From a virus: 64,000 nucleotides of DNA. The DNA is taken from IMG/VR virus record IMGVR_UViG_3300005253_000004, positions 55,471 to 119,470 of that record; one strand, 5' to 3'. Position numbers and translations under genes: made by a program. The notes beneath the pieces were generated by a model, which saw only the letters and a program-made list of their open reading frames with translations, was not told the origin of the DNA and did not search any database. This document shows positions 337 to 34,254 of this stretch, one piece after another (the stretch's first letter is position 1; each line of letters opens with the position of its first letter).

Positions 337-1737
337 CTACCCTTTATTAGCCTTCGCTTTCTTCTGCGCTTGCAGCTCAGCAGGGGTGTACTTCCGCTTA
401 CGTGGGCCCTCATCAACCTCGCAAGTGTCTGCTTCTACTTCGTTATTCGTGATACTCATCCTGCTAAGGTCCACCTCAAGGAACACGCTCCGCTTGGAAC
501 GCTTGGCGAACCGCTGCTTGAGGTCAACCAGCTCCATCACGATCTCTTCATCGGATAGTTCTTGTTGCCGCATCCCAATGATGCAGGCTGCCTCTTGCAG
601 ATGCTTGACCGAACCTTGTGCCATCTCCAGGCTGAGAGGATCCCTCTTCTTCGGGTCCCTCCCGAACCCTGAGCGGTTGGTCTGCGCTGCTGTCCATACT
701 AGTATGTTGTGGCGCTTCGCAAAACGGGAGAGATCACGGCTGATCGCACCCAGCCAATCCCATACCCTATCCCTACTGTACCCGGTATCACAAGGCCGCA
801 TCCTCTCGATGAAGTCCAGCACCAGCACGTCAGGCTTCCACCCGAGTAGGTTGACCCACTTCATCATCTCGGATTCGAGATCGTCCACGCTAACCTCTCG
901 GTTTACCTCAGTAATCCGGAGCTTTTCATGTAACCCTTCTCGCCACTTCCGCTCCAGCTCTGGTGTGTACGCCACGCCTGGGTCATCGATGATGTCTTGC
1001 ACCTTGACGCCTGTGATCTTAGACAGCACACGTTCTGTCTGCTCCTCAAGCGACAACTCATTGGTGACCAGCCATACCCTGCGCTCCTCTACTGCGGACA
1101 TCTTGTGCGCCATGTTCACCAGCATGCTGGACTTACCATCCCCCGTGGGGGCCATTATGATACCGAGCTGCTTCGTTCGCAGCCCACCCCCTGTCCACTT
1201 GTCGATGACGTGGATCCCACACGGGATACGCACTAGCTCTGGTGTGAACCCATGGCTATCAATGAGGTTGTCGATGGCCTCGCGCACATCCATCGTCCTG
1301 TCCTCGTTCAGATCCCCATGCTTAGTGAGGAATCTGTACAAAGCTTTAAGCATGTCACCACCCTCAAGCTCCGCCTGCTTCTTCAAGAAACCTTGGTCTG
1401 CGCTCAATTCTTGGAAGTCACGCACCACACCCGTATCCCTCGCCTTACCTAGCGTGTAGAGCTGGGTGGACCGGTCAGGTATGGTTTCTGTGATGCTGTC
1501 GAGTGCAGCTTTGTACCTCAAGTCGTACGCTTCCTTGTCTTTGTCTTCGAACACCTTGTGTAGTGTGTTGATGGACGGCTGCTCTCCGTGCTTTCGGGTG
1601 AAAGCAAAAAGCTCAGCCAGGATAGGTACCAGCTCAGAGGTGTTGAGCCACGAGGGCTTGAATGATGTCGCAAACTTGCGAGCGTCCTCCGGACGTGCGG
1701 TCAAGGCATAGAGGAAGGCCTTCTCATCGAACTTCAT
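337..1737 (-). CDS. DnaB-like (SF4) replicative DNA helicase
   Basis: Walker A APTGDGKS, NELS, LVLDFI, TAAQTNR, KQRF motifs; 466 aa. Confidence 0.9.
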   Translation of the reverse strand: MKFDEKAFLYALTARPEDARKFATSFKPSWLNTSELVPILAELFAFTRKHGEQPSINTLHKVFEDKDKEAYDLRYKAALDSITETIPDRSTQLYTLGKARDTGVVRDFQELSADQGFLKKQAELEGGDMLKALYRFLTKHGDLNEDRTMDVREAIDNLIDSHGFTPELVRIPCGIHVIDKWTGGGLRTKQLGIIMAPTGDGKSSMLVNMAHKMSAVEERRVWLVTNELSLEEQTERVLSKITGVKVQDIIDDPGVAYTPELERKWREGLHEKLRITEVNREVSVDDLESEMMKWVNLLGWKPDVLVLDFIERMRPCDTGYSRDRVWDWLGAISRDLSRFAKRHNILVWTAAQTNRSGFGRDPKKRDPLSLEMAQGSVKHLQEAACIIGMRQQELSDEEIVMELVDLKQRFAKRSKRSVFLEVDLSRMSITNNEVEADTCEVDEGPRKRKYTPAELQAQKKAKANKG

Positions 1738-2012
1738 ACTAGGCTCCCTGCCGCTCTAGCGTAGTACGCTTTACCTACGTCTTTCTCTGAATTAAGGAGC
1801 AGCCAAACTATTACTATGCTCTCTGGCATAGAGAGACCACACTCATTACATTTTAAGTATGCAGGATTCATTGAGTGCCGTTTCCAGCTAGCCTCGCAGG
1901 CTAGGTGTGTAATTCCTGATCCTTGTTTTTTCCAATCTGCCCAACGAGGTTCTAGTATAGCCCACTCCCCTATCCTTATCAATTCTATTACATCTTTACC
2001 ATTAGCTTTCAT
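1734..2012 (-). CDS. small Zn-finger paralog family member
   Basis: IGEWAIL...HLAC...CNECGLSMPESIVIVWLL. Confidence 0.7.
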   Translation of the reverse strand: MKANGKDVIELIRIGEWAILEPRWADWKKQGSGITHLACEASWKRHSMNPAYLKCNECGLSMPESIVIVWLLLNSEKDVGKAYYARAAGSLV

Positions 2013-2072
2013 GCTTCCTCCTTGTACCGGGTCAAATATTTCCCATAGTGGTACACGTTTTCATGCTCGTCA

Positions 2073-2426
2073 ATTCGAGCGAATAAACTGTTTAGGTGTA
2101 GCCTCTGCTTACGGTAGATCTTCTTCGTTGTTCCACATGTACAAGTTATGGAAGCCTACTATCTCATCTGGCTCAGAGGTTTCGCACTGGCCGCACACCC
2201 TATCGTAGTATAAGCAAAACGACCACTCTTCTTCGCTAAACCTAGAGATATCCCCACCACAGCGGTGTTGAATGACTACCCACTTACCATACTTAGGGCC
2301 GCTATCTGGCGCCGTGGCACGCACCATCCGCCAGTCACCCTTTGTAAATAGTATTTCAAATACCAGTCTGGGTTCTACTTTCATTTCTTACCTTTCGATT
2401 CGAGCGGACACACTGTTTAGGTGTAG
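2073..2426. repeat. 29-bp imperfect direct repeat (2073-2101 and 2398-2426) flanking one Zn-finger gene
   Basis: ATTCGAGCGAATAAACTGTTTAGGTGTAG vs ATTCGAGCGGACACACTGTTTAGGTGTAG, 26/29 identical. Confidence 0.8.
2109..2384 (-). CDS. small Zn-finger paralog family member
   Basis: KGDWRM...QHRC...CGQCETSEPDEIVGFHNLYMW. Confidence 0.8.
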   Translation of the reverse strand: MKVEPRLVFEILFTKGDWRMVRATAPDSGPKYGKWVVIQHRCGGDISRFSEEEWSFCLYYDRVCGQCETSEPDEIVGFHNLYMWNNEEDLP

Positions 2427-2432
2427 GTTTAA

Positions 2433-2585
2433 TTAGGATCCTCCGTCGAAGCGCGCTTGACGCTGGTACCTACCACACCTCTTGCAGTACCGTTCTTGCA
2501 CGATCGCCTTCGCATTGCTATCAACCATGTCCACTACAGTTATCTTGCTCCACTTAGCCCAGTCATGCCAGATCCAACACTTCAT
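2433..2585 (-). CDS. 50-aa Cys/His-rich hypothetical protein (not in ORF track)
   Basis: MKCWIWHDWAKW...ERYCKRCGRYQ, starts directly after rtcB stop. Confidence 0.6.
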   Translation of the reverse strand: MKCWIWHDWAKWSKITVVDMVDSNAKAIVQERYCKRCGRYQRQARFDGGS

Positions 2586-2587
2586 GT

Positions 2588-3848: not shown

Positions 3849-4115
3849 TTATACTGTATCTTCTTTGTTGTCCCACATCATTAAGTTGTGGAAGCCTATC
3901 ATCTCTTTAGGCTCAAGCATCTTGCAGCAGCTACATCGCCGATTACTATGATAACAAAGTGACCACCCATTATCACTAAATAGCTTCTCTTCATATACAC
4001 TTGAGTCACAACGATGTTGAACAATGAGCCACTGCCCGTAGCCTCCCGGTCGTGTTACACGGACTAATCGAAAGTCACCTTTATCAACCAGTATGTTAAA
4101 CTTGTAACTCATCAC
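3849..4115 (-). CDS. small Zn-finger paralog family member (close to 2109-2384)
   Basis: KGDFRL...QHRC...CSCCKMLEPKEMIGFHNLMMW. Confidence 0.8.
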   Translation of the reverse strand: MMSYKFNILVDKGDFRLVRVTRPGGYGQWLIVQHRCDSSVYEEKLFSDNGWSLCYHSNRRCSCCKMLEPKEMIGFHNLMMWDNKEDTV

Positions 4116-5071
4116 ATGTCATCCCTTGAACGCCACCCTAACCAAACCGGGAACCGAGGCTTCGCTGTCTCTCCGCTTGGCTGATGCTTGTACTTAGCGA
4201 TGTACCCTATGTAGATCTGCTTGTTATTCCACCATTCTTTGCGTTGCTTTTTCGTCACTCCCTTCATGGTGCCTATAGAGAACTCGATGCCTGTCTTGAG
4301 GTCACGACACAGCCACTTGCCGAGGTGCCCGTTGGGTACCTTGCCTGCCTTGGCGCTGGACCTCTCCGATCTACCATGAGCATTGGTTTTCTTGGGGTTG
4401 GTGTTGGTACACATCTCTTCAAACCCAATGATCTCTGCCTCATCATCTTGGAAATGCTTGTACTTACCCATACCACCATGAGTCATAGTGCTGCGACCGT
4501 GGAGATACACATGTCCTTGCCTTGCGATGACCCCTTCATACCCCTCGTCCACACACTTGTTCCAATACTTCATGAATCCTTCAGAATCAAAGACAAGGGT
4601 TGGTTTTACCAACTTGATGCACGCTGGCTTAGGCCTGGGCAGCTTGTCCAACTGCTTCACTCTCTGGTTATAGAAGTCAGGGTTATCATAGATATCGAAC
4701 ACGTAGTAGATAAAGTCAGGCTCACCCTCTACCTTCATGATAGGACCGGAGGACTCACCGAATGTCTTGGCACCCTTGATGAACAGCTCACCATCCATGC
4801 CCTCTACCCCGTACTCTTCCAGCACCTTGCGGATGTGGAGGTTGGGGATGGGCTTGAGTTTGAAGCTCATAGGTGTCCCGTTTGGGTACGTGACACACCG
4901 GATCCCGTCAATCTTGGGGGTGCATAGCGATGGGTACTGCACGTCTACCTTAGGGTCACGAATGGTAAACGGTTTCATAGGCCTGAAGGGGCCTTGTAGT
5001 TCTGCTTCTGTCTTGTTTACCGGCTTCCTGTACTTGGGCTTGTACTTCTTGAACGTCTTAGACTTTTTCAC
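4112..5071 (-). CDS. ATP-dependent DNA ligase (minimal, PBCV-1-like)
   Basis: KIDGIR adenylation motif, DGEL, YVFD, EGVIAR, KYK, PRFP. Confidence 0.92.
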   Translation of the reverse strand: MKKSKTFKKYKPKYRKPVNKTEAELQGPFRPMKPFTIRDPKVDVQYPSLCTPKIDGIRCVTYPNGTPMSFKLKPIPNLHIRKVLEEYGVEGMDGELFIKGAKTFGESSGPIMKVEGEPDFIYYVFDIYDNPDFYNQRVKQLDKLPRPKPACIKLVKPTLVFDSEGFMKYWNKCVDEGYEGVIARQGHVYLHGRSTMTHGGMGKYKHFQDDEAEIIGFEEMCTNTNPKKTNAHGRSERSSAKAGKVPNGHLGKWLCRDLKTGIEFSIGTMKGVTKKQRKEWWNNKQIYIGYIAKYKHQPSGETAKPRFPVWLGWRSRDDM

Positions 5072-5345
5072 TTTTATCTATCTCCTTCCAATTCATCATA
5101 GCCACCAGCCCTACGATTTCTTTAGGCACGGGTTTTTGACACTCCCAGCATCTATCCTCTTTATTAGGTTCCGCGTCCTGCCACTCCCAACACCAGTGAG
5201 CCTCCTCCCCATCGAATCTAAAGCCACACCCTACTATATGCTCACCATAGATTGTAGCATTATCATCATCATCCCCGCTGTGGTGGTACTTAACTACCGC
5301 CCACCCTTTTATGTCAGGCACTAAAATCTCTCTCGCAGAGCGCAT
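5058..5345 (-). CDS. small Zn-finger paralog family member
   Basis: KGWAVV...HIVGC...CWECQKPVPKEIVGLVAMMNW. Confidence 0.75.
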   Translation of the reverse strand: MRSAREILVPDIKGWAVVKYHHSGDDDDNATIYGEHIVGCGFRFDGEEAHWCWEWQDAEPNKEDRCWECQKPVPKEIVGLVAMMNWKEIDKSEKV

Positions 5346-6505: not shown

Positions 6506-7955
6506 CGAACCCCTCCTCCTCCCATATTTTCTTCCTTGCGGCCGAGTGTCGCTTCAAGATCGCTCCCGTCTGATCATTAAAGTCTATTACCAAAACCTCA
6601 TGTTTCCCTGCTGCTTTTCTCAAGCCTCGGCCAATCTTCTGAAGCGCTGCCACTTTGGACTTCCCACCTCCAGCCAAGATGAGGGTGCGTAGGTTGGGTA
6701 TATCCACACCCTCTTCGTAAATACCTGTCGCAATTATAGCACTTATTTTCCCAGATTGCAAGTCAGCTATCCCTTTGGTTCTATCCTTGTTCTTTGTAGC
6801 CCCGTTATGAACTGCTGGAACTGGAATCCCCTTATTTATCGCCATTCTTCGGAGGATACTTGCATGTCCTAATCTAGATGTCATCACTAGTGCAGGCTTC
6901 GGACACTTGACCAGCTCCTCTATGATTCTCTTGTTCCTGTTCAAGTTCAGTACGATGGCATGGTCGTAGACATCAGGCCAGCTTTTTGGGCGTCCGATAT
7001 CTGGCATCTTAATTATCACCACCCTAGGCGGCGTAAGGTAGCCAGCTTTGATGAGCCGTTCATTGGTAATATGAGCGAGTCTGTCACCAGTACACCCCAT
7101 GAGGAGCTGGTTGCTGTACTCGTCCTTCAAGAACGGAGTCGCAGTGAGTCCAAATCTATAGTAAGCACGGCGGAATTGCCGAGACACCGAAACAAGCTGA
7201 TTACCCACCGCTATCTTGCTGGCTGCGAGGTGAGCCTCATCGAAGAAGATCTGCTCTGCCCCAAGGAACTGTTTAATTTTCTCGTTGTCACCCTCTTTGA
7301 AGAGCCTATCTAGTGTCTGCACCGTAGCTACAGTAACTCCTGACGTGTTAGGATCAAACACTCCGTCGCCTATCTGCCCTGTGTCTATGCCGTACTTCTT
7401 GAACCTTTCCCTTGCCTGGGTAACGAGGTGCTTACGATGTACTATAAACATGGTGGGTACTGGTATCGCTTGGCATAAGGCTACAGCCAGCTCAGTCTTA
7501 CCGCCTCCCGTAGCTATCTGAAGCACACCTTGAGGCCAGTGGTACCCTGCGGTAGTGCCCATGAATACTTTGTTGTTCACCGCAGCAAGAAAGGCATCGG
7601 CTTGGTAATCTCTTAGAGGTACGCTATACTCATAGCTAGGCATCTGCGGCCTATGCCTTAGGTCGTTGAAGGTGAAGGGCATCGTAGCCAGTGCTGCCAG
7701 CTCTGCGTGGATGTAGGGTAACAACCCTGTAGGAAAGAAGGCACTACCATTGCTAGGGTGTGGCTTACTGAGGATGCTTGTGCGTCCATCCCATCCTTTT
7801 GCTCCCTTGGTCTGGAGCCATAGCTTGTGTTGCCTCATGTACCGGGCACCAGGGGCCATCGTCTTGACAGCCTCCCGTACCTGAGCATACATCTCTAGCT
7901 CACCGTCACCTTCTGGCTTGACCAGGGCTATGGTGTTGTCGAATTCAATCAGCAT
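6486..7955 (-). CDS. superfamily 2 (UvsW/XPB-like) DNA helicase
   Basis: LRDYQ, ATGGGKT, DEAH, TATP, EGVDIP, QKIGRGLR. Confidence 0.92.
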   Translation of the reverse strand: MLIEFDNTIALVKPEGDGELEMYAQVREAVKTMAPGARYMRQHKLWLQTKGAKGWDGRTSILSKPHPSNGSAFFPTGLLPYIHAELAALATMPFTFNDLRHRPQMPSYEYSVPLRDYQADAFLAAVNNKVFMGTTAGYHWPQGVLQIATGGGKTELAVALCQAIPVPTMFIVHRKHLVTQARERFKKYGIDTGQIGDGVFDPNTSGVTVATVQTLDRLFKEGDNEKIKQFLGAEQIFFDEAHLAASKIAVGNQLVSVSRQFRRAYYRFGLTATPFLKDEYSNQLLMGCTGDRLAHITNERLIKAGYLTPPRVVIIKMPDIGRPKSWPDVYDHAIVLNLNRNKRIIEELVKCPKPALVMTSRLGHASILRRMAINKGIPVPAVHNGATKNKDRTKGIADLQSGKISAIIATGIYEEGVDIPNLRTLILAGGGKSKVAALQKIGRGLRKAAGKHEVLVIDFNDQTGAILKRHSAARKKIWEEEGFDVKERD

Positions 7956-8226
7956 CTGTCTCCGATCCCCATCGTTGAAGTTTTAGTAGCCCCACGATCC
8001 CATCGGACGGAGCTGCATTACACACATTACATTGTGGGGAGTTATCTTCTACGTTCACCGCGTTTGTACCTAAAGTACACCGATGTATGATGTGATACCT
8101 ACCACTCATGTCTGCTGGTGTTCTTTTGTAGAGGCACCATAACCCTTCTTCAAACAGGATGGCTCTATCCGCAGATTCCGCACCACTGCGGTGCGGTGGA
8201 CTAAAGATGTCTTTAAGCTTTATCAT
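7945..8226 (-). CDS. small Zn-finger paralog family member
   Basis: EEGLWCL...IHRC...CNVCNAAPSDGIVGLLKLQRW. Confidence 0.8.
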   Translation of the reverse strand: MIKLKDIFSPPHRSGAESADRAILFEEGLWCLYKRTPADMSGRYHIIHRCTLGTNAVNVEDNSPQCNVCNAAPSDGIVGLLKLQRWGSETDAD

Positions 8227-8524
8227 TTAGTGCCCACCTTGCAAGCGTTATGTAACCTTCCATCTCATCAGGCACACGCTCACCGCATCGCCCGCACTTC
8301 CATGTACTTCGGAAAGAGGGTCCGTCAGCAGCGTCAACAACCACACAGTACCATCGCTCGCCATGTTGGTGGTACCTCCTACTTGTTACTATTGCTTTGC
8401 CGGTGTTCAAGACTAGCTGCCAATCTCCTTGGATAACGGGGGTAGACCCGGGCCACAGTATGACGTCTGCTTCGTATAGTTTTCCTAGGTCATCCCTTCT
8501 AGACCACGTATTTCTAGTTGTCAT
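8213..8524 (-). CDS. small Zn-finger paralog family member (HxH variant)
   Basis: QGDWQL...YHQH...CGRCGERVPDEMEGYITLARW. Confidence 0.8.
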   Translation of the reverse strand: MTTRNTWSRRDDLGKLYEADVILWPGSTPVIQGDWQLVLNTGKAIVTSRRYHQHGERWYCVVVDAADGPSFRSTWKCGRCGERVPDEMEGYITLARWALNDKA

Positions 8525-8885
8525 CTACCGCCCACCTTGCGAGGTTGATGTAGCCTTCCATCTCTTCGGGCACTTGCTCGCTGCAATGCCCACACTTCCA
8601 CTTATCCTCCCCTGGATAATCTTCCTTGGGTGATGATGATTTAAAGTAAGAGATTACAGTGTACCATCGCTTACCATGCCTGTGGTATTGCCTGTACCTT
8701 AATCTTTTGCCGGGGTAGACACATAGCTTCCAGTCACCTTGGATTATAGGCGTAGCGTTACTCTGGTGGTACTTCTCCGCCTCATGATCCTCTCTCTTCA
8801 AAGGGTCTTTGCGGTACGCCTTCCTTGACCTCGGGTGCCTGTCATTTGTCGGTGCCACAGACCCTGCGACGGACTTCGTTTTCAT
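8514..8885 (-). CDS. small Zn-finger paralog family member (HxH variant, tandem duplicate of 8213-8524)
   Basis: QGDWKL...YHRH...CGHCSEQVPEEMEGYINLARW. Confidence 0.8.
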   Translation of the reverse strand: MKTKSVAGSVAPTNDRHPRSRKAYRKDPLKREDHEAEKYHQSNATPIIQGDWKLCVYPGKRLRYRQYHRHGKRWYTVISYFKSSSPKEDYPGEDKWKCGHCSEQVPEEMEGYINLARWAVDDN

Positions 8886-9304: not shown

Positions 9305-9989
9305 CAGTTGGCTCCCTCATAATCCTGTACTGTTTGGTTGTGACTGCTTGCTTCACCTTGTTGGTGATAGCAGCCTTCGTATCCTTGCCTTTGCCCATGC
9401 CCTCCAGTGCCTCGGCCATCGTGTTCTGCCCTTCGACCAGCTTCTCCATACCCTTAGGCACCCAATCATGGGTGATGACATACCTCATACACGTAGCTAC
9501 GTCGGTCAGCCTTGTGTTGAGCCGCTGCTTTAGCATGTCTATCTTGCCTTGAGGTTGCCCGTCCCTTACCGCTACGAACAACTCTTCACAACAGTCAGCG
9601 AAGCTATCAAGCCCGGTGATATCCTGTCGTAGCTTGCGTGTACTTCGGTACTCCTGCTTACAGGGCGCACACACTACGATGAGGTTGTCAGGTCGTGCCT
9701 CACCACCCACCTTGAGTGGTACGTAGAACATCAGCCGTGCTGCGTTCAACGTCGCCCTGCCTAGATAGCTGAGGCGTGTGTCGCAGAACACACACTTGCC
9801 ACGGTACTGGTGGAAGCACGCTTCTGCGTCTGACACCTTGATCTTTTCATACGTCTGCCATAGCTTGTCCTTCCCTGTCACCTTGGAGTACGCCTTCTCT
9901 ATCTCGTTGTTGATCTCCTCTATGCCGTGCTTCAGGAAGGGTGTGTTCAACCTCTTAGGTACACGCCTTGTCCGTTTCTTAGCCTCCAT
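9297..9989 (-). CDS. HNH-fold protein, catalytic His apparently lost
   Basis: CVFC...MFYVPLKVGGEARPDNLIVVCAPC resembles HNH_5 but lacks the DH and C-terminal N. Confidence 0.6.
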   Translation of the reverse strand: MEAKKRTRRVPKRLNTPFLKHGIEEINNEIEKAYSKVTGKDKLWQTYEKIKVSDAEACFHQYRGKCVFCDTRLSYLGRATLNAARLMFYVPLKVGGEARPDNLIVVCAPCKQEYRSTRKLRQDITGLDSFADCCEELFVAVRDGQPQGKIDMLKQRLNTRLTDVATCMRYVITHDWVPKGMEKLVEGQNTMAEALEGMGKGKDTKAAITNKVKQAVTTKQYRIMREPTDE

Positions 9990-10326
9990 ACTGTAGTACC
10001 TCCCAGTTCTGAAACTTCCACACCGCTATCATGCCCTCGGGTATCTCTTTGGTGCAGCGCCAGCAATGTGAGCTGTCGTCGGGGTATACCACTACTTGAT
10101 ACACGTAGTTACCTCTCTTATGTGGGTAAGGTTCCTGCCCCTCGTACCCATTAGGGTAACACACATGCTTGAGCAGCGAGTAGTATTTACTCCGACTTGA
10201 CCTGAAGCTTTGTCCTTCTTCCGGCTGACGTAGCTTTTCGATAGTCCAGTCTCCATCGTTAAGTAGCACTTCCGCATCAGCTTGCGCGTCTCGCGCTGCC
10301 ATGTAGTTAACGAAGGGCTTAATCAT
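9979..10326 (-). CDS. small Zn-finger paralog family member
   Basis: DGDWTI...KHVC...CWRCTKEIPEGMIAVWKFQNW. Confidence 0.8.
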   Translation of the reverse strand: MIKPFVNYMAARDAQADAEVLLNDGDWTIEKLRQPEEGQSFRSSRSKYYSLLKHVCYPNGYEGQEPYPHKRGNYVYQVVVYPDDSSHCWRCTKEIPEGMIAVWKFQNWEVLQYGG

Positions 10327-16637: not shown

Positions 16638-16638
16638 C

Positions 16639-24015: not shown

Positions 24016-24288
24016 TTAGCCATCACTGACCCCTTTGGCACCTGCCATGAGCAGCACCATCAAGCCTTGTATCTCATCAGGCACGGGCTCTTCGCAGTAG
24101 TAACAAACACACGGATCGTCGGAGGTGAACCATGCGTAGCTTCCAGGTCGAACAGTTGTGTTTTTGGATAGCTTACGTACCTTACTGTAAACTTTGAGGT
24201 CACACTTATGGTTTGCATAGTACTCAAACAGGTGCTCTTCTTCGTTATTTATGATGTTCCAATTACCTAGAGTAAACAAGGCCATCAC
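24016..24288 (-). CDS. small Zn-finger paralog family member
   Basis: LGNWNI...NHKC...CYYCEEPVPDEIQGLMVLL. Confidence 0.8.
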   Translation of the reverse strand: MMALFTLGNWNIINNEEEHLFEYYANHKCDLKVYSKVRKLSKNTTVRPGSYAWFTSDDPCVCYYCEEPVPDEIQGLMVLLMAGAKGVSDG

Positions 24289-28771: not shown

Positions 28772-28800
28772 AGTATCGCACGTCAAGTCGAGAAAGTCAA
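28772..28800 (-). promoter_or_regulatory. host-type sigma70 promoter heading the early-type operon
   Basis: TTGACT-17-GATACT with TG extension; IHF-consensus AATCAACTACTTA at 28812-28824. Confidence 0.65.
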
Positions 28801-29355
28801 ATCCTCAACAAAATCAACTACTTACACGACCGACTTGCCGGTTCATACATGGTAAACCCCCCGCTAAGCTGCTGTTAATAACACTTTTTAGTGATACTGT
28901 TTAGTACTGATAATACCCTAGACAGGACGTGGGGTTACAGCAATAGTGCTTCAATGCCGTGGAGTTACAGCCTTGAGTACCTACTACTGTTTCCAAGGGG
29001 GGGGTGGGTCTATTGGTGTTGCCATCAGCTTAATATATCCAACTAGATCGCGGGGTTAGCCCAATCTGTGTAGTTTTAGACCCTTTTTGCTCTTTATGTG
29101 CTTTAATTAGACCGGTCATTCGCAAGAATGCCTTTATTTACGTGTACTTAGCCTTATTCCTTAGTGTATACCCACAAGAACCCAGAGGACAAGAGGTCTA
29201 GAGAGCCTAAGTAGTGGTTATAACGTACACATGGGGGTTTATGGTGGTAGTAGGGGTGTTTATGGTAAGTGTTCGTTGTTTCTTACGAATCTCTTGACTT
29301 GGTTGAGTCCGGACTCGGGTATCAGACCCCCGAAAAGGGGCCATTTAGGTGTTAT
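28801..29355. other. long non-coding region with short repeats and a G run (possible genome end/pac or origin)
   Basis: no credible ORF; CGYGKRSTTAS motif at 28928, 28958, 29049, 29141; G8 run near 28997. Confidence 0.45.
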
Positions 29356-29670
29356 TTAGGGGGCTTTTTGAGCAATTTGCATTATGGCGTACGCATGTTC
29401 TGATTCGAGCATCAAATACAAACATTCCAGCTCCTCCGGAGGCGATCTCAGACAGCGGGAGCAAGCCCAGCAGGGATCGGGGTGTCTTGCTCTCATGGGG
29501 AACTCGGCGTTCAAGTACAATACTAGTAGGTACTCAAGGCCCCCTTTGAGCACCGGTTGGCACAGGTGGTACATGTGGTGTAACCCCGAAACACTCGAAA
29601 CACTCGATTTCGCTATCACCCAGTCGTTCATTTCGAGCTTGATTTTTAGTCTGGAGCCGTCTTTAGTCAT
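29356..29670 (-). CDS. Zn-finger paralog, array member 15 (last)
   Basis: NDWVI...YHLC...CSRCLRSPPEELECLYLML. Confidence 0.8.
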   Translation of the reverse strand: MTKDGSRLKIKLEMNDWVIAKSSVSSVSGLHHMYHLCQPVLKGGLEYLLVLYLNAEFPMRARHPDPCWACSRCLRSPPEELECLYLMLESEHAYAIMQIAQKAP

Positions 29671-29912
29671 GCTCCCTCCTTCAAGAACCAGAACATGGCC
29701 TGGATGCCCTCCGGAGGAGCCTCCCTACATGCGAAACACGGGATACCCCGGTAGCAAAGACCGTAAACGAACGGATGCCATTCCAAATCGCTTCCGCATT
29801 TATGCCTACTGCAGGAACCACGGCATCTATGCTCGATGCTGATCGCCCGGATGGAGTTCAAATTGCGCCAGGCAAGCCGGAATGCCCCGATAGTGATTAG
29901 AGGCTCAGTCAT
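29667..29912 (-). CDS. Zn-finger paralog, array member 14
   Basis: IGAFRL...EHRC...CFACREAPPEGIQAMFWFL. Confidence 0.8.
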   Translation of the reverse strand: MTEPLITIGAFRLAWRNLNSIRAISIEHRCRGSCSRHKCGSDLEWHPFVYGLCYRGIPCFACREAPPEGIQAMFWFLKEGA

Positions 29913-30183
29913 TTTCCCTCCTAGAGTCCATATCTCCGGTCAGCATGACAAACAGCGCCTGAAGACCCTCAGGGACACGGGAGTGACATTGCGTGCAAGG
30001 ATATTGGAAGTACCGATAGATGTCTCGCCGAGCTGTCCACCACGAATGTTCACAGTTATGCCACAGATAATACAAGTAAGGGGTTCCTTGCTGGTGTTCT
30101 GGCGTTCCTTCTGTTTGCTCGTACAGCCCCCACCCTGCTTCAAAGGCGATGGGGTCAGGTTGCGGTTTCGGTTCAGTATCCAT
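29905..30183 (-). CDS. Zn-finger paralog, array member 13
   Basis: AGWGL...WHNC...CTQCHSRVPEGLQALFVMLTGDM. Confidence 0.8.
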   Translation of the reverse strand: MDTEPKPQPDPIAFEAGWGLYEQTEGTPEHQQGTPYLYYLWHNCEHSWWTARRDIYRYFQYPCTQCHSRVPEGLQALFVMLTGDMDSRREND

Positions 30184-30186
30184 AGT

Positions 30187-30408
30187 CTACTCCTCCTTCA
30201 TGAATAAGAGCATCACTTGGATACTGTCCGGAGCTCTCTCTTGACAATTCCGACAAGGGCGATGACAAAGGCTAGGGGTTCCGCTAAACCCTTCCCATCG
30301 GTCCTTACACCGGTGCTCGATGAACCACCAGTCATATCCGCCCTTGTACCTGTACCGGGATAATCGGAAGTTTCCATATTCAAAGCGGACCGTTTTGTAG
30401 TCAGCCAT
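30187..30408 (-). CDS. Zn-finger paralog, array member 12
   Basis: YGNFRL...EHRC...CRNCQERAPDSIQVMLLFM. Confidence 0.8.
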   Translation of the reverse strand: MADYKTVRFEYGNFRLSRYRYKGGYDWWFIEHRCKDRWEGFSGTPSLCHRPCRNCQERAPDSIQVMLLFMKEE

Positions 30409-30640
30409 TGGGCTCTTCCTTCATAATCCAGAATATCGCTTGAAGGCCGTCTGAGGGACGACTCTTACACCAAGAGCACTTCCACCCCCGCGCCTGGACG
30501 CTGAAGATACGTCCGCGCCAGCAACCTTCATCGTCGTGGCCTTCTGGCACGGGGCACTTGTGCTCTAGGTACGTGTGCCGCATTATTGTCCCCATGTGCC
30601 GGCGGACCAGTCGGTAATCATTGTCAGTTTTGAGAACCAT
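30401..30640 (-). CDS. Zn-finger paralog, array member 11
   Basis: NDYRL...EHKC...CSWCKSRPSDGLQAIFWIM; start reset. Confidence 0.8.
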   Translation of the reverse strand: MVLKTDNDYRLVRRHMGTIMRHTYLEHKCPVPEGHDDEGCWRGRIFSVQARGWKCSWCKSRPSDGLQAIFWIMKEEPNG

Positions 30641-30654
30641 CAAGGTCGCCTCAA

Positions 30655-31080
30655 TCAGTAGGCCCTTCCTAAGGGGAGTAAAACCCCGCCTGACCAAGGC
30701 CCAAATGTACCCGGCGGGTCGTCTTCTTCCACGCGCCTGCGCAGTTCCAGGACTTCGCTTACCTCCAAGGAGGTGTTGTCCGGCTCCAGCAGGCACCAGA
30801 CAGCAACGATGCTTGCGGGTGGAACTGCGAAGCAGTTCTCGCAGTGCCAGTTGGGCTTGATCTTCCGGGTCCCGTTGATAGAGAAGTCAGACCCTATGTC
30901 GGCTCGGTACTCACAGAGGTACATATCCCATTCAGTCTTTTCGCACTGGTGCCAGAGCCCATGCGTGGTGAACCTGTTATGATACTGGAGGATCCTCCAC
31001 CGGCCTCGTTTGAGCTTCTCAGCACCGTACTCTGTTTCGATGTACTCTGCTTGGGACTTCCATACGCCTTTCAGACTCAT
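30655..31080 (-). CDS. Zn-finger paralog, array member 10
   Basis: RGRWRI...WHQC...CENCFAVPPASIVAVWCLL; start reset. Confidence 0.8.
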   Translation of the reverse strand: MSLKGVWKSQAEYIETEYGAEKLKRGRWRILQYHNRFTTHGLWHQCEKTEWDMYLCEYRADIGSDFSINGTRKIKPNWHCENCFAVPPASIVAVWCLLEPDNTSLEVSEVLELRRRVEEDDPPGTFGPWSGGVLLPLGRAY

Positions 31081-31343
31081 GACCCCTCCATCAAGAACCA
31101 GAAACACGCCTGAAGCCCTTCGGCGGGGCGTTCTTTGCATAAGGGGCATTCCGTGCCTCGGTTGCCGGTCGTGTAGATCATCCCACGCCATTGTTCTTCC
31201 CATTTAAGGCCAGCAACAGAGCACTTGTGCTCGATGAGGATTACTGCGGGGAGATACACGGCGCCCATCCCGGTTTGACGGGTGTACTGGCGAATTCGCC
31301 ATCTGTCGATCTGGAGGTGGACTGTCGATCCGAGGTCACTCAT
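31077..31343 (-). CDS. Zn-finger paralog, array member 9
   Basis: IDRWRI...EHKC...CPLCKERPAEGLQACFWFL. Confidence 0.8.
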   Translation of the reverse strand: MSDLGSTVHLQIDRWRIRQYTRQTGMGAVYLPAVILIEHKCSVAGLKWEEQWRGMIYTTGNRGTECPLCKERPAEGLQACFWFLMEGS

Positions 31344-31579
31344 GGCTTCATATCCCCTGTCATCAGGACGAACATTGCTTGGATCCCTTCGGGGACTGCT
31401 TTATGACACCAACCACAAGGGTGGTGTAGCCCTCTATACCTATACCGAGTAGCCACTAAGCCAGTGGTGTCTAGACATACGTGATGAAGAAAGTGACTCA
31501 TTTGCCAGCTAGGGCTCTGGTCTTGTGTGACGCAGAGGTCCCAGGTATCCTCAGACCAGATGACGTCTTTGGTCTTCAT
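31340..31579 (-). CDS. Zn-finger paralog, array member 8
   Basis: DTWDL...HHVC...CGWCHKAVPEGIQAMFVLMTGDM. Confidence 0.8.
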   Translation of the reverse strand: MKTKDVIWSEDTWDLCVTQDQSPSWQMSHFLHHVCLDTTGLVATRYRYRGLHHPCGWCHKAVPEGIQAMFVLMTGDMKP

Positions 31580-31959
31580 GGCTTGTACTCCCAGATCTGT
31601 CCAGGCTGCCCGATCGGTGTGCCACTACCCATGTAGAAGAAACCCCCTGGGACTAGGTAGAGGTAGTTCGAGGAGTAGAAGGGTGAGAGCTCTTCTTGGT
31701 ACTGGGGTTCTTCTAGGAGGTCGAAGTTCTTCAGCTTCCATAATCCCATGATCGAGTCCGGGATATCTGCTCCACAATGCATACAGGTCTGCATCGTCTT
31801 CATTTCCCAGGTGCTGATCGGCTTGTACTGGAGCAGAAAGTTCCACTTCCATTTGCACTTGTGATAAACTGTATCGAACATATCCTCGTACCCAGGGATA
31901 CCCTTGATGATCCAGCCTTGATCCTTAAATAGAACTCCTTCGTCACGCAAGCGACTCAT
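31576..31959 (-). CDS. Zn-finger paralog, array member 7
   Basis: QGWII...YHKC...CMHCGADIPDSIMGLWKL; start reset. Confidence 0.8.
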   Translation of the reverse strand: MSRLRDEGVLFKDQGWIIKGIPGYEDMFDTVYHKCKWKWNFLLQYKPISTWEMKTMQTCMHCGADIPDSIMGLWKLKNFDLLEEPQYQEELSPFYSSNYLYLVPGGFFYMGSGTPIGQPGQIWEYKP

Positions 31960-32231
31960 CCGTGCTCCTGCCCGTATCGCACCAGCTCCCAAAACCCAAC
32001 CAGCTCAGTAGGAACGTCGGCGCAACAGTGGCTACAGCGTGGGTCGCCTTGAGGGTCATGTATCATGTTGGCATCCTTCTTCCACACGCTGGAGCATCGA
32101 TGCCACAATGTGGCAGTCGGTTGCCTCGCTCTGCCCTTCGACGGCGGGCCTAAGTATTCATCGTTGATGATGAAGAACCCATCATCCTCCCACAGGATTT
32201 TCCGATCGAGAAACTTAGGCACGGTAGTCAC
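31956..32231 (-). CDS. Zn-finger paralog, array member 6
   Basis: DGFFI...WHRC...CSHCCADVPTELVGFWEL. Confidence 0.8.
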   Translation of the reverse strand: MTTVPKFLDRKILWEDDGFFIINDEYLGPPSKGRARQPTATLWHRCSSVWKKDANMIHDPQGDPRCSHCCADVPTELVGFWELVRYGQEHG

Positions 32232-32582
32232 TCAAAACGGCATGCCGCGCAGCGAATCGGCCCAAGGATCCGGCTCCGAAGCGTCTGCTATTTCATTTGT
32301 ACTGCGGTCCCAGTCTAGCATGATGTAGGCCCCGGTTAGTCCTTCGGGGCTGAGAGCGTTGCACATCGTGCAGCGCCAGCCCTGCTCATCCGGACTAGAA
32401 TCGAAGCTCCTCCACGCGCCGTACCTGCACTCATAGATGGTACGGTGCTTGACGAGTTCTTCATCGCCGTAGTCATCGCAGTTGTGCCAGATCCGGACGT
32501 CCTTGCTCAATGCACTTTTCAGTAGCCGAAACCGACCTTCTCGCATCAGCATTTGCATGTATGCCCTAGGTTGGTGCGTCAT
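32232..32582 (-). CDS. Zn-finger paralog, array member 5
   Basis: EGRFRL...WHNC...CTMCNALSPEGLTGAYIMLDW; start reset. Confidence 0.8.
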   Translation of the reverse strand: MTHQPRAYMQMLMREGRFRLLKSALSKDVRIWHNCDDYGDEELVKHRTIYECRYGAWRSFDSSPDEQGWRCTMCNALSPEGLTGAYIMLDWDRSTNEIADASEPDPWADSLRGMPF

Positions 32583-32857
32583 CCTAGCATAGCCTCCATA
32601 TGTGTCATCTGCCATAAAGCTTGGATACTCTCGGGGATTTCTTCTTCGCACAACCCACAGCGAGGGGTGTTCTTCATGTTATCAGAGTGGACTACGAGTT
32701 CTTTTCGATCATCCTTAGGGCATTCATGAAGCACGATAGGTGCCTCGGAAAGGTGCTTCCACTTCACACCCCACTTAGTGGGTGCGAGGAGTTTCCACGT
32801 TCCTTCTTGGATTATAGGCGTATCGTTGTACAAGTAGCGATCATCTTCTAGTCCCAT
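32579..32857 (-). CDS. Zn-finger paralog, array member 4
   Basis: EGTWKL...LHEC...CGLCEEEIPESIQALWQM. Confidence 0.8.
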   Translation of the reverse strand: MGLEDDRYLYNDTPIIQEGTWKLLAPTKWGVKWKHLSEAPIVLHECPKDDRKELVVHSDNMKNTPRCGLCEEEIPESIQALWQMTHMEAMLG

Positions 32858-32869
32858 GGGTTCTTCCCT

Positions 32870-33076
32870 TTATCGCTTCTGGGGGCCTTCCGGCACCTTG
32901 AGGATGGTCCTGCTTTTGTCTAGCTTGCAGCCCTCGTCACAGTGGAACTTCATACTTTTTCTGCCGAACAGTTTCACGGCCTTCACAGGCTTATTGTGAT
33001 TCCGACAGTAACGTATTTTCGAAAACCCTGCCGCACTCGGAAGGACTGTTCTCGGATTGCGCATTCGTTTACCCAT
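32870..33076 (-). CDS. small basic Cys-containing protein interrupting the array
   Basis: CRNH...CDEGC. Confidence 0.6.
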   Translation of the reverse strand: MGKRMRNPRTVLPSAAGFSKIRYCRNHNKPVKAVKLFGRKSMKFHCDEGCKLDKSRTILKVPEGPQKR

Positions 33077-33249
33077 TACCCCTCCGTAGGCTCCTTAATT
33101 CTGCGTTGGATCTCTCTGCGAATATCAGCCACTATATACCCGCTACCCGAGTCGTCGTTGAAATAATCCTCATTGTCGTCTATGTATTCTATAAGTTCCT
33201 TCAGCTCGGCTTTGACTGCCATCTCTGCCGCGTATCTATTAATTCCCAT
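33076..33249 (-). CDS. hypothetical protein
   Basis: MGINRY start after AGGAG. Confidence 0.55.
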   Translation of the reverse strand: MGINRYAAEMAVKAELKELIEYIDDNEDYFNDDSGSGYIVADIRREIQRRIKEPTEG

Positions 33250-33257
33250 GGTGTCTC

Positions 33258-33587
33258 CTATGAGATTGGTGCTTCGTAAAGTCTGACTGCCATCGCAATG
33301 CCTTTGTCGAGAACGAACCCACACCCTTCACACCAATACATCGGGCCGTCGTTGTTCTCGCGGAGCGTCATCTCTTTGTAGTCTTCTCGTCCTTCGCAGT
33401 GGTGGACGAGCATTTCGTGCGGAACTGTGTTGTACTTAACGAGGTACACGTTTTCGGCTATTTTCTTCACCGAAGATTCCGTCTTTTGCGTCTCTTCTTT
33501 GGAAGGGACTCGTTGGTAAACGGTGTCACCCTGACCGAAGAACGCGGGGCGAGCACGACGAATGATGCGAGCTATACCTTCCTTCAT
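33258..33587 (-). CDS. Zn-finger paralog (divergent), array member 3
   Basis: VHHC...CEGCGFVLDKGIAMAVRL. Confidence 0.7.
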   Translation of the reverse strand: MKEGIARIIRRARPAFFGQGDTVYQRVPSKEETQKTESSVKKIAENVYLVKYNTVPHEMLVHHCEGREDYKEMTLRENNDGPMYWCEGCGFVLDKGIAMAVRLYEAPIS

Positions 33588-33943
33588 AGCTCCTCCTCCA
33601 TGATGATGATCCCTTTGATCCCATCAGAGAGGGTTTTCTCACAGCGACGGCACTTACCGTAGATGCTGATACCTCCTCCTTTGGTCTTGTAATACTCTAC
33701 CCATGACGGAGCCCTGATCCTATCGTCGTCACAGGCATGTGCCAATCGAGACCCTAGATCGTATTGTAGGGCCCTCCATGACGCGAACGAAAACCAGAGC
33801 GGGGAGTTCCTAGCAACGACGTTCAGCCGAGTGTACTCCTTCTGGACCCTCTCTACGATGACAGGCTTCGGGCACCAGTACCAGTCATCAATCTGAGGCC
33901 ACATCTCTTTGCGGATGAGCGTTTTCCGATGGTAGCTTCTCAA
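33584..33943 (-). CDS. Zn-finger paralog (divergent), array member 2
   Basis: AHAC...CRRCEKTLSDGIKGIIIM; TTG start overlapping upstream stop assumed. Confidence 0.65.
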   Translation of the reverse strand: MRSYHRKTLIRKEMWPQIDDWYWCPKPVIVERVQKEYTRLNVVARNSPLWFSFASWRALQYDLGSRLAHACDDDRIRAPSWVEYYKTKGGGISIYGKCRRCEKTLSDGIKGIIIMEEEL

Positions 33944-34254
33944 GCTAATCCCTCGTCGCCTGTCCCTAAGCCATCGCTCCAGATGGCTCGAAGTCCATTT
34001 TCGTCTTCTGAGTCCCATATTTCTTTGCATCCTGTACAGTAATACCAGCCGTGAGTAAAGTCCCATCGGACCCTTTCAGTCAGGATCACCCATGTTGAGG
34101 GGTCCCCTGTATCTAAATCTTGCTCACAGATATGCAGAAGGGGCTGTACCCCCTCGTTATCATGCAGGTTCGGATCTCTGACAAACCACGCATCCTTAGG
34201 GAGTTCCTTGACTGGAACCTTGTAAACACCAGTACCCTCTATCCATTCTTCCAT
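33940..34254 (-). CDS. Zn-finger paralog (divergent), array member 1, probably leaderless
   Basis: DAWFV...LHIC...CTGCKEIW; ATG lies 7 nt after TATAAT with no SD. Confidence 0.65.
   Translation of the reverse strand: MEEWIEGTGVYKVPVKELPKDAWFVRDPNLHDNEGVQPLLHICEQDLDTGDPSTWVILTERVRWDFTHGWYYCTGCKEIWDSEDENGLRAIWSDGLGTGDEGLA

What the first reader, a model, noticed from the sequence alone, without database searches (positions are those of the whole stretch)
1734..34254. About 32-member expansion of one small Zn-finger scaffold with hypervariable loops
Seen directly: 32 minus-strand ORFs of about 70-140 aa share one architecture. It is an N-terminal [DEQ]GxW-hydrophobic strand, a variable loop, hydrophobic-x-H-x-C (or HxH, HxxC), a second variable loop of about 10-35 aa, then CxxC-x4-P-[DEK]-[EGS]-[ILM]-x-[GA]-[LF]-xx-[LM]-xx-W. 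The outer three array members are more divergent. Dispersed copies (left coordinates): 1734, 2109, 3849, 5058, 7945, 8213, 8514, 9979, 13802, 14203, 15873, 16139, 16380, 18028, 23128, 23593, 24016. Another 15 sit in the 29356-34254 array, and 13575 is a possible 33rd. I do not recognise a named family. Paralog families this large are very unusual in phages. Inference: a fixed metal-stapled fold displaying diversified loops resembles a binder repertoire (anti-defence or host-takeover effectors, or adaptors that all dock through the conserved C-terminal helix onto one partner).
Basis: partly seen in the sequence, partly recalled or inferred. Interest (0 to 1): 0.9.

Follow-up and report, generated by a model that had tools for sequence, protein, structure and literature searches.

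The report
Expanded zinc mini-protein family in phage
An uncultured 119-kb marine-sediment phage gives about 8% of its DNA to more than 30 old, diverged copies of one small, undescribed zinc-binding protein with a fixed core and variable loops, and its function is still untested.

Summary
A profile built only from the 17 dispersed ORFs finds 12 array ORFs. After iteration, 30 of 516 window ORFs match (E <= 1e-11); the next ORF scores E 0.27. Of the other listed ORFs, 33258 is probable, 33940 is unproven and 13575 is not supported. Two to three further copies lie upstream of the window.

The family has no Pfam, PHROG, NCBIfam, PADLOC or PDB relative. No match was found in 50,697 deposited phages, yet 1,058 metagenomic clusters match.

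Two AlphaFold models (pLDDT 82 and 91) give the same order of elements: four strands, a CxxC knuckle and a C-terminal helix. No structural match rises above background.

The expansion is older than the split from a sister phage, which has 29 copies. The core is under strong purifying selection (dN/dS 0.14). The loops evolve faster (0.43), but positive selection is not shown.

The tandem array sits directly behind a conserved sigma-70-like promoter.

The most likely role is a set of early intracellular binding proteins, but this is inferred only.

The scan's other notes on this family are untested first readings of the same genome. It has also reported different zinc mini-protein arrays in two other uncultured phages.

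The parts
1734..2012 (-). family member (92 aa); its stop overlaps the DnaB start
   Evidence: HMM E 6e-17
2109..2384 (-). family member (91 aa); modelled, pLDDT 82.4
   Evidence: HMM E 2e-22; model
3849..4115 (-). family member (88 aa), between the ligase and RtcB genes
   Evidence: HMM E 7e-21
5058..5345 (-). family member (95 aa), between the GP88 and ligase genes
   Evidence: HMM E 3e-19
7945..8226 (-). family member (93 aa)
   Evidence: HMM E 3e-18
8213..8524 (-). family member (103 aa), HxH variant
   Evidence: HMM E 5e-17
8514..8885 (-). family member (123 aa), HxH variant
   Evidence: HMM E 8e-18
9979..10326 (-). family member (115 aa)
   Evidence: HMM E 5e-21
13802..14206 (-). family member (134 aa) with an acidic C-terminal extension
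   Evidence: HMM E 2e-19; pI 4.3
14203..14496 (-). family member (97 aa), just downstream of the VWA-metallopeptidase gene
   Evidence: HMM E 2e-17
15873..16142 (-). family member (89 aa), HxH variant
   Evidence: HMM E 3e-14
16139..16378 (-). family member (79 aa)
   Evidence: HMM E 8e-18
16380..16679 (-). family member (99 aa), HxH variant; overlaps the 3' end of the MoxR-type AAA gene
   Evidence: HMM E 3e-13
18028..18324 (-). family member (98 aa)
   Evidence: HMM E 2e-16
23128..23424 (-). family member (98 aa)
   Evidence: HMM E 2e-17
23593..23841 (-). family member (82 aa)
   Evidence: HMM E 3e-13
24016..24288 (-). family member (90 aa)
   Evidence: HMM E 5e-16
29356..29670 (-). array member (104 aa), last gene of the array
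   Evidence: HMM E 2e-15
29667..29912 (-). array member (81 aa)
   Evidence: HMM E 5e-17
29905..30183 (-). array member (92 aa)
   Evidence: HMM E 3e-19
30187..30408 (-). array member (73 aa), the smallest; modelled, pLDDT 91.2
   Evidence: HMM E 2e-18; model
30401..30796 (-). array member; the longest ORF is 131 aa, and the true start is probably further in (the domain lies in 30407-30655)
   Evidence: HMM E 7e-20
30655..31203 (-). array member; the longest ORF is 182 aa, and the true start is probably near 31083
   Evidence: HMM E 2e-22
31077..31343 (-). array member (88 aa)
   Evidence: HMM E 4e-19
31340..31579 (-). array member (79 aa)
   Evidence: HMM E 6e-17
31576..31992 (-). array member (138 aa at the longest start)
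   Evidence: HMM E 1e-24
31956..32231 (-). array member (91 aa)
   Evidence: HMM E 8e-19
32232..32651 (-). array member (139 aa at the longest start)
   Evidence: HMM E 1e-24
32579..32857 (-). array member (92 aa)
   Evidence: HMM E 2e-17
33584..34066 (-). divergent array member (160 aa; the domain is in the C-terminal half)
   Evidence: HMM E 1e-11; homologue L021_220_585 on a metagenome array contig
33258..33587 (-). probable very divergent member (109 aa)
   Evidence: HMM E 0.79; hhalign P 4e-4 over 52 columns in register; homologue at the head of metagenome array L017
33940..34254 (-). possible member (104 aa), first gene behind the promoter; membership not shown
   Evidence: HMM E 0.54; hhalign P 0.017, no better than controls
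34261..34289 (-). TTGCAA-N17-TATAAT promoter-like site; the -10 hexamer ends 6 nt before the ATG at 34254
   Evidence: 7 exact sites in the window against 0 expected; sequence; an identical 29-mer sits 6 nt before the first array ORF of the sister phage
29318..29345 (-). G+C-rich stem-loop just after the last array gene, followed by about 560 nt without ORFs
   Evidence: read from the sequence; not scored by the terminator scan

Best explanation
SHOWN:
- This is a lineage-specific, old expansion of one undescribed small protein domain of about 65-90 residues.
- There are 30 significant copies in the window. A further 2-3 lie just upstream in the same 119-kb phage genome.
- The predicted order of elements is strand 1, strand 2 (a hairpin carrying the G-x-W motif), strand 3 ending in H-x-C (or H-x-H), strand 4 carrying a conserved Trp, a CxxC knuckle, and then a C-terminal amphipathic helix.

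INFERRED:
- The invariant His and three Cys (or His) hold one structural zinc ion, which ties strand 3 to the knuckle before the helix.
- The conserved hydrophobic face of the helix packs on the sheet.
- The three variable segments (between strands 2 and 3, after HxC, and before CxxC), together with the N- and C-terminal tails, form the differing surfaces.

MOST LIKELY FUNCTION (inferred, not shown):
- The proteins are a repertoire of small cytoplasmic binding proteins made early in infection.
- The 13-15-gene array is the first thing transcribed from a host-type promoter.
- The dispersed copies are co-translated with replication and repair genes.
- Each copy would bind a different protein target, either a host protein (takeover or anti-defence) or a phage enzyme.
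For: Family and scaffold:
- Profile searches establish one family.
- Two AlphaFold2 models give the same element order. The dispersed member 2109 has pLDDT 82.4 and pTM 0.74. The array member 30187 has pLDDT 91.2 and pTM 0.77.

Genes are real and maintained:
- Pooled over 21 ortholog pairs with the sister phage, dN/dS is 0.14 in the 31 scaffold columns and 0.43 elsewhere.
- Gene order is collinear with the sister phage.

The expansion is old and shared:
- The sister phage G001 (DnaB 93% identical) has 29 copies.
- Most copies pair as orthologs across deep paralog branches.
- Fragments of other relatives carry 9 copies in 16.6 kb and 6 in 7.6 kb.
- Three unrelated metagenome contigs of 3.0-4.5 kb carry 11-12 copies back to back.

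Turnover:
- 10 of 31 copies lack a reciprocal best hit in the 50 kb of G001 that I examined.

Early expression (inferred):
- The array starts 6 nt after a TTGCAA-N17-TATAAT site. The window has 7 exact sites against 0 expected.
- The same 29-mer heads the array in G001.

No sign of an enzyme or of uniform nucleic-acid binding:
- Only the four metal ligands are invariant or nearly so.
- pI ranges from 4.3 to 9.1, with a median of 6.25.
- No fused forms were found among longer proteins (weak evidence).
Against: - No partner, binding event or expression datum exists.
- Loop dN/dS of 0.43 shows relaxed constraint, not positive selection.
- dS is about 0.8, close to saturation. The scaffold columns were chosen for their conservation, which is partly circular.
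- Family orthologs are less conserved than all other genes (median identity 62% against 77%, p 0.002). Against other ORFs of <= 160 aa the difference is only marginal (72%, p 0.053). The comparison rows include some alternative-frame ORFs that I did not remove.
- Zinc binding and the clustering of loops on one face are inferred. I could not inspect model coordinates.
- The host is unknown.
Confidence: 0.4

Rival explanations
1. The domain binds nucleic acid. On this reading the copies are DNA- or RNA-binding regulators, or accessory factors of replication and recombination. That would explain why dispersed copies sit among the DnaB, ligase, RtcB, helicase, RecA, SSB and polymerase genes.
For: - The best structural rows include DNA-binding folds with the same sheet-plus-helix arrangement. 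These are an MBD domain (6acv: Z 5.4, rmsd 3.6 A, 66 of 73 residues aligned) and PC4-like proteins (4bg7: Z 3.9).
- Zinc-stabilised small domains often bind nucleic acids (general knowledge).
- The copies are interleaved with replication genes.
- In a distant relative whose DnaB is 47% identical, the one copy found lies about 1.5 kb from DnaB.
Against: - All structural Z-scores are below the tool's stated background of 7-8.
- 16 of 30 members are acidic and only 6 are basic.
- No conserved basic positions occur outside the metal ligands.
- More than 30 regulators in a 119-kb phage would have no precedent that I know of.
Confidence: 0.2
2. The copies are adaptors or cofactors of the phage's own machines. 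The constant scaffold would dock on one phage-encoded machine: the MoxR-type AAA with its VWA-metallopeptidase partner, or the classical AAA ATPase and ClpP encoded upstream. The variable loops would choose the client protein to be remodelled or degraded.
For: - Six copies flank or separate the AAA_5-like ATPase (16639-17787) and the DUF2201 metallopeptidase-VWA gene (14493-15710).
- The genome also encodes ClpP and a PF00004 AAA ATPase.
- A constant core with variable loops fits adaptor logic (inference).
Against: - In the sister phage I counted only one copy between the AAA and VWA genes, so the local arrangement is not fixed (my reading of the family coordinates).
- Most copies lie elsewhere in the arm.
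- No interaction was tested.
- The conserved helix positions look like a buried face.
Confidence: 0.15
3. The copies are selfish or nearly neutral accessory genes. On this reading the family spreads by duplication and recombination within hyperplastic regions of the phage genome, without a coordinated function.
For: - 10 of 31 copies lack a reciprocal best hit in the examined part of the sister phage.
- The tree shows lineage-specific duplicates in both phages.
- One upstream copy carries an in-frame TAG.
- The family's overall dN/dS is similar to that of other small genes.
Against: - The scaffold is under purifying selection as strong as in core genes (0.14 against 0.15).
- 21 of 31 copies keep position and orthology across a divergence with dS of about 0.8.
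- The array and its promoter are conserved.
- About 8% of a size-limited genome is kept for the family.
Confidence: 0.1
4. Loop diversity is produced by a diversity-generating retroelement or another targeted mutator.
For: Only the appearance of hypervariable loops on a fixed scaffold.
Against: - No reverse transcriptase (PF00078) is present in the complete genome, while the same search found it in 3 of 14 control genomes.
- The direct-repeat scan of 20000-36000 reported only one short family of paralog junction repeats of 45 nt at 60-76% identity.
- The paralogs are old and share only 14-48% identity with the first member of the alignment.
Confidence: 0.01

Closest known systems
Multigene families of small interaction scaffolds in large DNA viruses, such as the ankyrin, BTB/kelch, F-box and Bcl-2-like families of poxviruses and giant viruses (recalled from general knowledge, not from a call)
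   Same: One fold is copied tens of times in one viral genome. The core is constant and the surfaces vary. Copies turn over between related viruses. Copies occur both in arrays and dispersed.
   Different: - The host is a bacterium or archaeon and the virus is a 119-kb tailed phage.
- The scaffold is a single-zinc domain of about 70 residues with no detectable relation to those folds.
- No target or partner is known.
Sheet-plus-C-terminal-helix domains, the nearest structural arrangement: MBD (6acv_A) and the PH-like superfold (RanBP3 Ran-binding domain 2y8f_A; EVH1 domains)
   Same: A four-stranded antiparallel sheet is crossed by a C-terminal helix. 66-68 of 73 residues align (6acv: Z 5.4, rmsd 3.6 A; 2y8f: Z 5.1, rmsd 3.6 A).
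   Different: - Z-scores are under the tool's background of 7-8.
- Sequence identity is 4-6%.
- As far as I recall, those domains have no zinc site at this place.
- Foldseek finds nothing at E <= 0.001 in PDB or BFVD.
Classical zinc ribbons and treble-clef fingers (for example Pfam Zn_Ribbon_1)
   Same: One structural zinc ion. One ligand pair comes from a CxxC knuckle that precedes a helix.
   Different: - The first ligand pair is H-x-C or H-x-H at the end of a long strand, not a second CxxC knuckle.
- The spacer is 13-36 residues and includes a conserved Trp strand.
- Only 1 of 145 members touches Zn_Ribbon_1, at E 0.0016.
Other large arrays of small zinc proteins that this scan reported in uncultured phages (e1-5881951: 58 copies, likened to the DnaJ cysteine-rich domain; e1-5374981: 31 copies, eight cysteines)
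   Same: Tens of old, diverged copies of one unnamed small zinc protein sit in one large uncultured phage, and the function is untested (AI notes I did not check).
   Different: - As described, the metal motifs differ (DnaJ-like CxxCxG repeats and eight cysteines, against one H-C-C-C site here).
- A look-up by sequence found look-alikes only in this genome. That index sees only fairly close sequences.

Membership tests
Any Pfam-A, PHROG, NCBIfam or PADLOC family | A significant match to a curated profile | tested here: not met
   - Pfam: 0 families for 10 ORFs at E <= 1, apart from one match at E 0.2.
- Pfam on 145 members: six different families hit one member each, best E 0.0016.
- PHROGs: 0 of 30 members at E <= 0.01.
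- NCBIfam: nothing below E 0.04.
- PADLOC: 0 of 30 members.
Zinc ribbon (two CxxC knuckles) | Two CxxC or CxxH knuckles, each on a beta-hairpin | tested here: not met
   Only one CxxC is conserved. The other ligand pair is HxC or HxH at a strand end.
HNH / beta-beta-alpha-Me nucleases | A catalytic His at the end of strand 1, plus a conserved Asn and a His or Asn in the helix | tested here: not met
   The invariant or nearly invariant columns are H, C, C, C and P only. The helix has no conserved Asn or His. No HNH Pfam model matched.
Zinc-binding anti-sigma (ZAS) domain | A contiguous H-x3-C-x2-C motif | tested here: not met
   The His motif and CxxC are 13-36 residues apart. The ZAS motif itself is recalled from general knowledge.
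Lar-like restriction alleviation protein (phrog_6795) | A profile match | tested here: not met
   Only the doubtful ORF 33258 touches it, at E 0.21. None of the other 9 ORFs scanned does, and 0 of 30 members match at E <= 0.01.
MBD (methyl-CpG-binding domain) fold | Structural superposition well above background | tested here: inconclusive
   6acv_A: Z 5.4, rmsd 3.6 A, 66 residues aligned, 4% identity. This is below the stated background of Z 7-8.
PH-like superfold (Ran-binding, EVH1, PH domains) | A seven-stranded sandwich capped by a C-terminal helix, with superposition above background | tested here: inconclusive
   2y8f_A scores Z 5.1 and Z 4.0. The models have four main strands, not seven.
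WRKY-GCM1 zinc fingers | A four-stranded sheet with a C-x(4-7)-C ... H-x-H/C ligand order | tested here: not met
   The ligand order here is the reverse, with HxC/H first and CxxC last. No WRKY, GCM or FLYWCH Pfam match was found. I saw the paper PMC1702500 only as a search listing and abstract.
Targets of diversity-generating retroelements | A reverse transcriptase and a template repeat in the same element | tested here: not met
   PF00078 is absent from the complete genome.

The most novel reading that the evidence does not exclude
The family may be a phage-encoded repertoire of target-selecting adaptors. The zinc-stapled core would dock on a phage machine, either the AAA ATPase with ClpP or the MoxR-VWA-metallopeptidase pair. 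Each copy's loops would pick a different host protein for unfolding, degradation or inactivation in the first minutes of infection. That would be a bacterial-virus counterpart of the substrate-adaptor expansions of poxviruses and giant viruses. Together with the other zinc mini-protein arrays this scan reported, it would point to a general strategy of large uncultured phages.
Probability: 0.07. Interest if true: 0.9.

Novelty: new variant of a known kind. Interest (0 to 1): 0.62.

Why it matters
Phage genomes are limited in size by the capsid, and they rarely keep many paralogs (general knowledge). Here about 8% of a complete 119-kb genome is spent on more than 30 copies of one undescribed domain. 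The copies are kept under purifying selection and shared with relatives.

The family has over a thousand 50%-identity clusters in metagenomes. It has no entry in Pfam or PHROGs and no match in deposited phages. It is therefore a sizeable, unannotated piece of viral protein space with a confident predicted structure.

If the copies are specific binders, three things would follow:
- They would be a natural library of very small, zinc-stabilised binding scaffolds.
- They would be a catalogue of what this phage clade needs to neutralise in its unknown marine-sediment host.
- They would give a handle on early host takeover in uncultured phages.

If they are not binders, the family still needs an explanation for its scale.

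Tried and rejected
Sequence searches that found nothing:
- Single-member tblastn against 50,697 GenBank phage records gave no match for three queries.
- A profile search of PDB sequences gave only repeat artefacts in de novo TIM barrels.
- The search for longer, fused forms found none. The tool states this is weak evidence.
- The 'near' search gave 17 unnamed hypothetical proteins.
- Cluster look-up of 10 hits gave no names.

ESM Atlas: two calls gave only scores of 0.79-0.86, with generic zinc-finger or unnamed clusters. All are below the tool's 0.9 threshold.

Fold searches: no Foldseek match at E <= 0.001 in PDB or BFVD. This does not show that the fold is new.

Self-association: complex prediction on two copies of the 73-aa member with zinc returned 'no answer' (score 0.00, mark 0.42). 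This is evidence neither for nor against dimerisation.

Expression: no RNA holder was listed. The three runs that hold the stretch are DNA runs of one marine-sediment study, and they may be the source of the record.

Wider context:
- Pattern scans with subfamily alignments found nothing in IMG/VR for A3 and nothing in GTDB genomes. A5 found only the sister phage.

Candidate member 13575-13829 is rejected as a member.

Literature: four full-text searches listed no paper describing this family or a comparable zinc-finger expansion in a phage. I saw only listings and abstracts and read no paper. I requested no supplements.

The terminator scan did not call the stem-loop after the array.

The tree was built with FastTree on 82 columns from 60 sequences. 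I did not examine support values, so only the ortholog pairs that agree are used.

Full report
**Setting.** The window is bases 55,471-119,470 of a 119,470-bp IMG/VR virus record with direct terminal repeats, rated complete.
- The phage has no close cultured relative. Its DnaB-like helicase is at most 27% identical to any of 50,697 deposited phage records. Its terminase matches one record at 28% identity over 27% of its length.
- The only public runs that hold the stretch are DNA runs labelled marine sediment metagenome.
- The minus-strand arm carrying the finding encodes DnaB, RtcB, an ATP-dependent ligase (recognised by eye), GP88, an SF2 helicase, a sigma-like protein with no Pfam match, a DUF2201 metallopeptidase-VWA protein and an AAA_5-like ATPase.
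- Just upstream of the window lie a primase-like gene, family A polymerase, gp32-like SSB, RecA, SbcCD, ClpP and a classical AAA ATPase.

- All listed ORFs exist.
- An HMM built from the 17 dispersed ORFs alone found 12 array ORFs at E < 1e-3.
- After iteration the profile matched 30 of 516 ORFs in the window, all on the minus strand, at E <= 1.2e-11. The next ORF scored E 0.27 and the best of 2,580 shuffled ORFs scored E 0.011.
- The 30 are the 17 dispersed ORFs and 13 of the 15 array ORFs.
- ORF 33258-33587 is a probable very divergent member: hhalign P 4e-4 over 52 columns in register, against P 0.009-0.52 for seven control ORFs.
- ORF 33940-34254 has the motifs in register but scores no better than the controls (P 0.017).
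- ORF 13575-13829 is not supported.
- A six-frame search of the whole genome adds one clear copy at genome 44,977-45,321. It also adds a copy at about 54,218-54,508 that is cut by an in-frame TAG just before its CxxC, and a C-terminal partial match in the ORF at 54,831-55,295.
- The family therefore has 31 intact significant copies, one interrupted copy and two or three doubtful ones.
- The 30 window copies cover 9,438 nt, which is 7.9% of the genome.

**Anatomy.**
- In the 30-member alignment the invariant columns are one His and the two Cys of CxxC. The Cys two residues after the His is present in at least 90%.
- The same holds in a 145-sequence alignment with metagenomic relatives, which adds a nearly invariant Pro after the CxxC.
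- Other informative columns are the G-x-W turn of the first hairpin, a Trp or Tyr in the fourth strand, and helix positions with an i, i+3, i+4, i+7 hydrophobic spacing.
- The His motif and CxxC are 13-36 residues apart.
- Two AlphaFold2 models, one of a dispersed member and one of the smallest array member, give the same order of elements: strands 8-15, 18-24, 35-41 and 54-58 with helix 73-83 in the first, and strands 4-11, 14-20, 26-34 and 37-42 with helix 61-72 in the second. Mean pLDDT is 82.4 and 91.2.
- I infer a single structural zinc site formed by H, C/H, C and C. I also infer that the conserved helix face is buried. I could not inspect coordinates.

**What it is not.**
- No Pfam, PHROG, NCBIfam or PADLOC profile matches.
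- No PDB sequence is related.
- Foldseek finds nothing at E <= 0.001 in PDB or BFVD.
- The exhaustive structural search peaks at Z 5.4 (an MBD domain) and Z 5.1 (a Ran-binding domain). The tool states that Z 7-8 is the usual best score for models without a true match.
- The arrangement of a four-stranded sheet crossed by a C-terminal helix is common, so I do not file the family under any of these folds.
- There is no reverse transcriptase in the genome, so a diversity-generating retroelement is excluded.

**Distribution.**
- The profile matches 1,058 representatives of 50%-identity clusters among 1.84 billion proteins at E <= 0.001.
- Of the 163 proteins I held, 126 were under 50% identical (or only partly aligned) to any copy of this phage or its fetched relatives.
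- Those looked up are unnamed and mostly on short contigs.
- Three family queries found nothing in deposited phages.
- IMG/VR holds eight relatives by DnaB. The complete sister phage G001 (119,599 bp, DnaB 93% identical) has 29 copies.
- Fragments carry 9 copies in 16.6 kb, 6 in 7.6 kb, 3 in 12.3 kb, 3 in 20 kb and 2 in 6.3 kb. One copy each was found in two more distant pieces.
- Six short metagenome contigs found with a subfamily pattern are almost pure arrays: 12, 11 and 12 family ORFs on 4.5, 3.0 and 4.3 kb, and 4 each on three 1-kb contigs. Two of these contigs, L017 and L021, also carry homologues of the non-canonical genes at the head of this window's array: 33258 and 32870 on L017, and 33584 and 32870 on L021.
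- The array is therefore a conserved operon of the clade.

**Evolution.**
- Against the 50 kb of G001 that I examined, 21 of 31 copies have a reciprocal best hit in collinear order. Median identity is 62% (range 42-82%). Median identity is 77% for 56 non-family pairs (p 0.002) and 72% for the 41 pairs of <= 160 aa (p 0.053). The non-family rows include a few alternative-frame ORFs that I did not remove.
- A tree of the 60 copies shows mostly ortholog pairs joined by long paralog branches. A few lineage-specific duplicates occur in each phage, and one clade is confined to the array. I did not examine support values.
- Nei-Gojobori estimates pooled over the 21 pairs give dN/dS of 0.14 for the 31 most conserved columns and 0.43 for the rest, with dS about 0.8.
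- Fourteen large core genes give 0.15, and sixteen hand-picked small non-family genes give 0.32.
- So the genes are real and maintained. The core is as constrained as replication enzymes and the loops are relaxed. Positive selection is not shown, and choosing the conserved columns is partly circular.

**Expression context.**
- The pattern TTGCAA-N16-18-TATAAT occurs seven times in the window against none expected, and nine times with one mismatch allowed.
- Only three of these sites are on the minus strand within the arm. One ends 6 nt before the ATG of ORF 33940-34254, the first gene of the array. This suggests a leaderless first gene.
- A divergent twin site faces the plus-strand genes.
- The sister phage has the identical 29-mer 6 nt before its first array ORF.
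- The array genes overlap or nearly abut and end at a G+C-rich stem-loop followed by about 560 nt without ORFs.
- I infer that the array is the promoter-proximal, host-polymerase-dependent early operon. No RNA data exist.

**Mechanism.** What is shown is a constant, probably zinc-stapled mini-domain with variable segments. It is kept in more than 30 copies, the array is at the head of the early arm, and the rest are tightly packed between replication and repair genes.
- I rate a repertoire of early cytoplasmic binding proteins with different targets as the most likely reading (about 0.4). The reasons are that no catalytic signature is conserved, charges range from pI 4.3 to 9.1, no fusions to enzymes were found, and copies turn over between relatives.
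- Nucleic-acid binding (0.2) is kept alive by the fold arrangement and the genomic company. It is weakened by the mostly acidic members.
- An adaptor role for the phage's AAA, ClpP or MoxR-VWA machines (0.15) is attractive but untested. The local arrangement around the MoxR pair differs in the sister phage.
- A largely selfish or neutral expansion (0.1) fits the turnover but not the strong constraint on the core or the conserved operon.

**Comparison and novelty.**
- The closest known kind is the multigene family of interaction scaffolds in large DNA viruses (recalled knowledge). The scaffold itself matches no described family.
- Four literature searches listed nothing comparable.
- The scan's other notes on this family come from overlapping windows of this same genome and are untested first readings.
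- Follow-up notes report large arrays of different small zinc proteins in two other uncultured phages. I did not check them. They suggest a recurring theme, which lowers the surprise of any one case and raises the interest of the class.
- I rate this a new variant of a known kind.

Noticed in passing
window 34261-34329: Two divergent TTGCAA-N17-TATAAT sites lie back to back. The minus-strand site ends 6 nt before the ATG at 34254, so the first array gene may be translated from a leaderless mRNA. The same 29-mer and spacing occur in the sister phage (L009 3309-3337).
   Followed up: partly
genome 54218-54508, about 960-1250 bases before the window start (L023 18218-18508): A family copy is interrupted by a single in-frame TAG immediately before its CxxC motif. 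It could be a pseudogene, a sequence variant or a read-through.
   Followed up: partly
window 24532-24896: A 21-nt tandem repeat (12 registers found) encodes a heptad-like seven-residue repeat in a 116-aa minus-strand ORF.
   Followed up: no
window 21562-21948, 27835-28128, 28412-28786: Three minus-strand ORFs of 97-128 aa look like a second small paralog family, with shared C-terminal motifs seen by eye. Direct repeat D6 links two of them at the DNA level.
   Followed up: no
window 21471-27745: Three further families of 28-53-nt direct repeats (D3, D4, D5; 3 copies each, 70-87% identical) lie between small minus-strand genes.
   Followed up: no
window 6050-6505 (-) and 35198-35638 (+): Two paralogous HNH-type homing-endonuclease-like ORFs have nearly the same N-terminal half (seen by eye). 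One lies inside the replication arm and one at the start of the plus-strand arm.
   Followed up: no
window 32870-33076: A 68-aa ORF inside the array has its own Cys/His pattern but is not a family member. Homologues sit at the same place in metagenome arrays L017 and L021.
   Followed up: partly
It is 87% identical in the sister phage.
   Followed up: no
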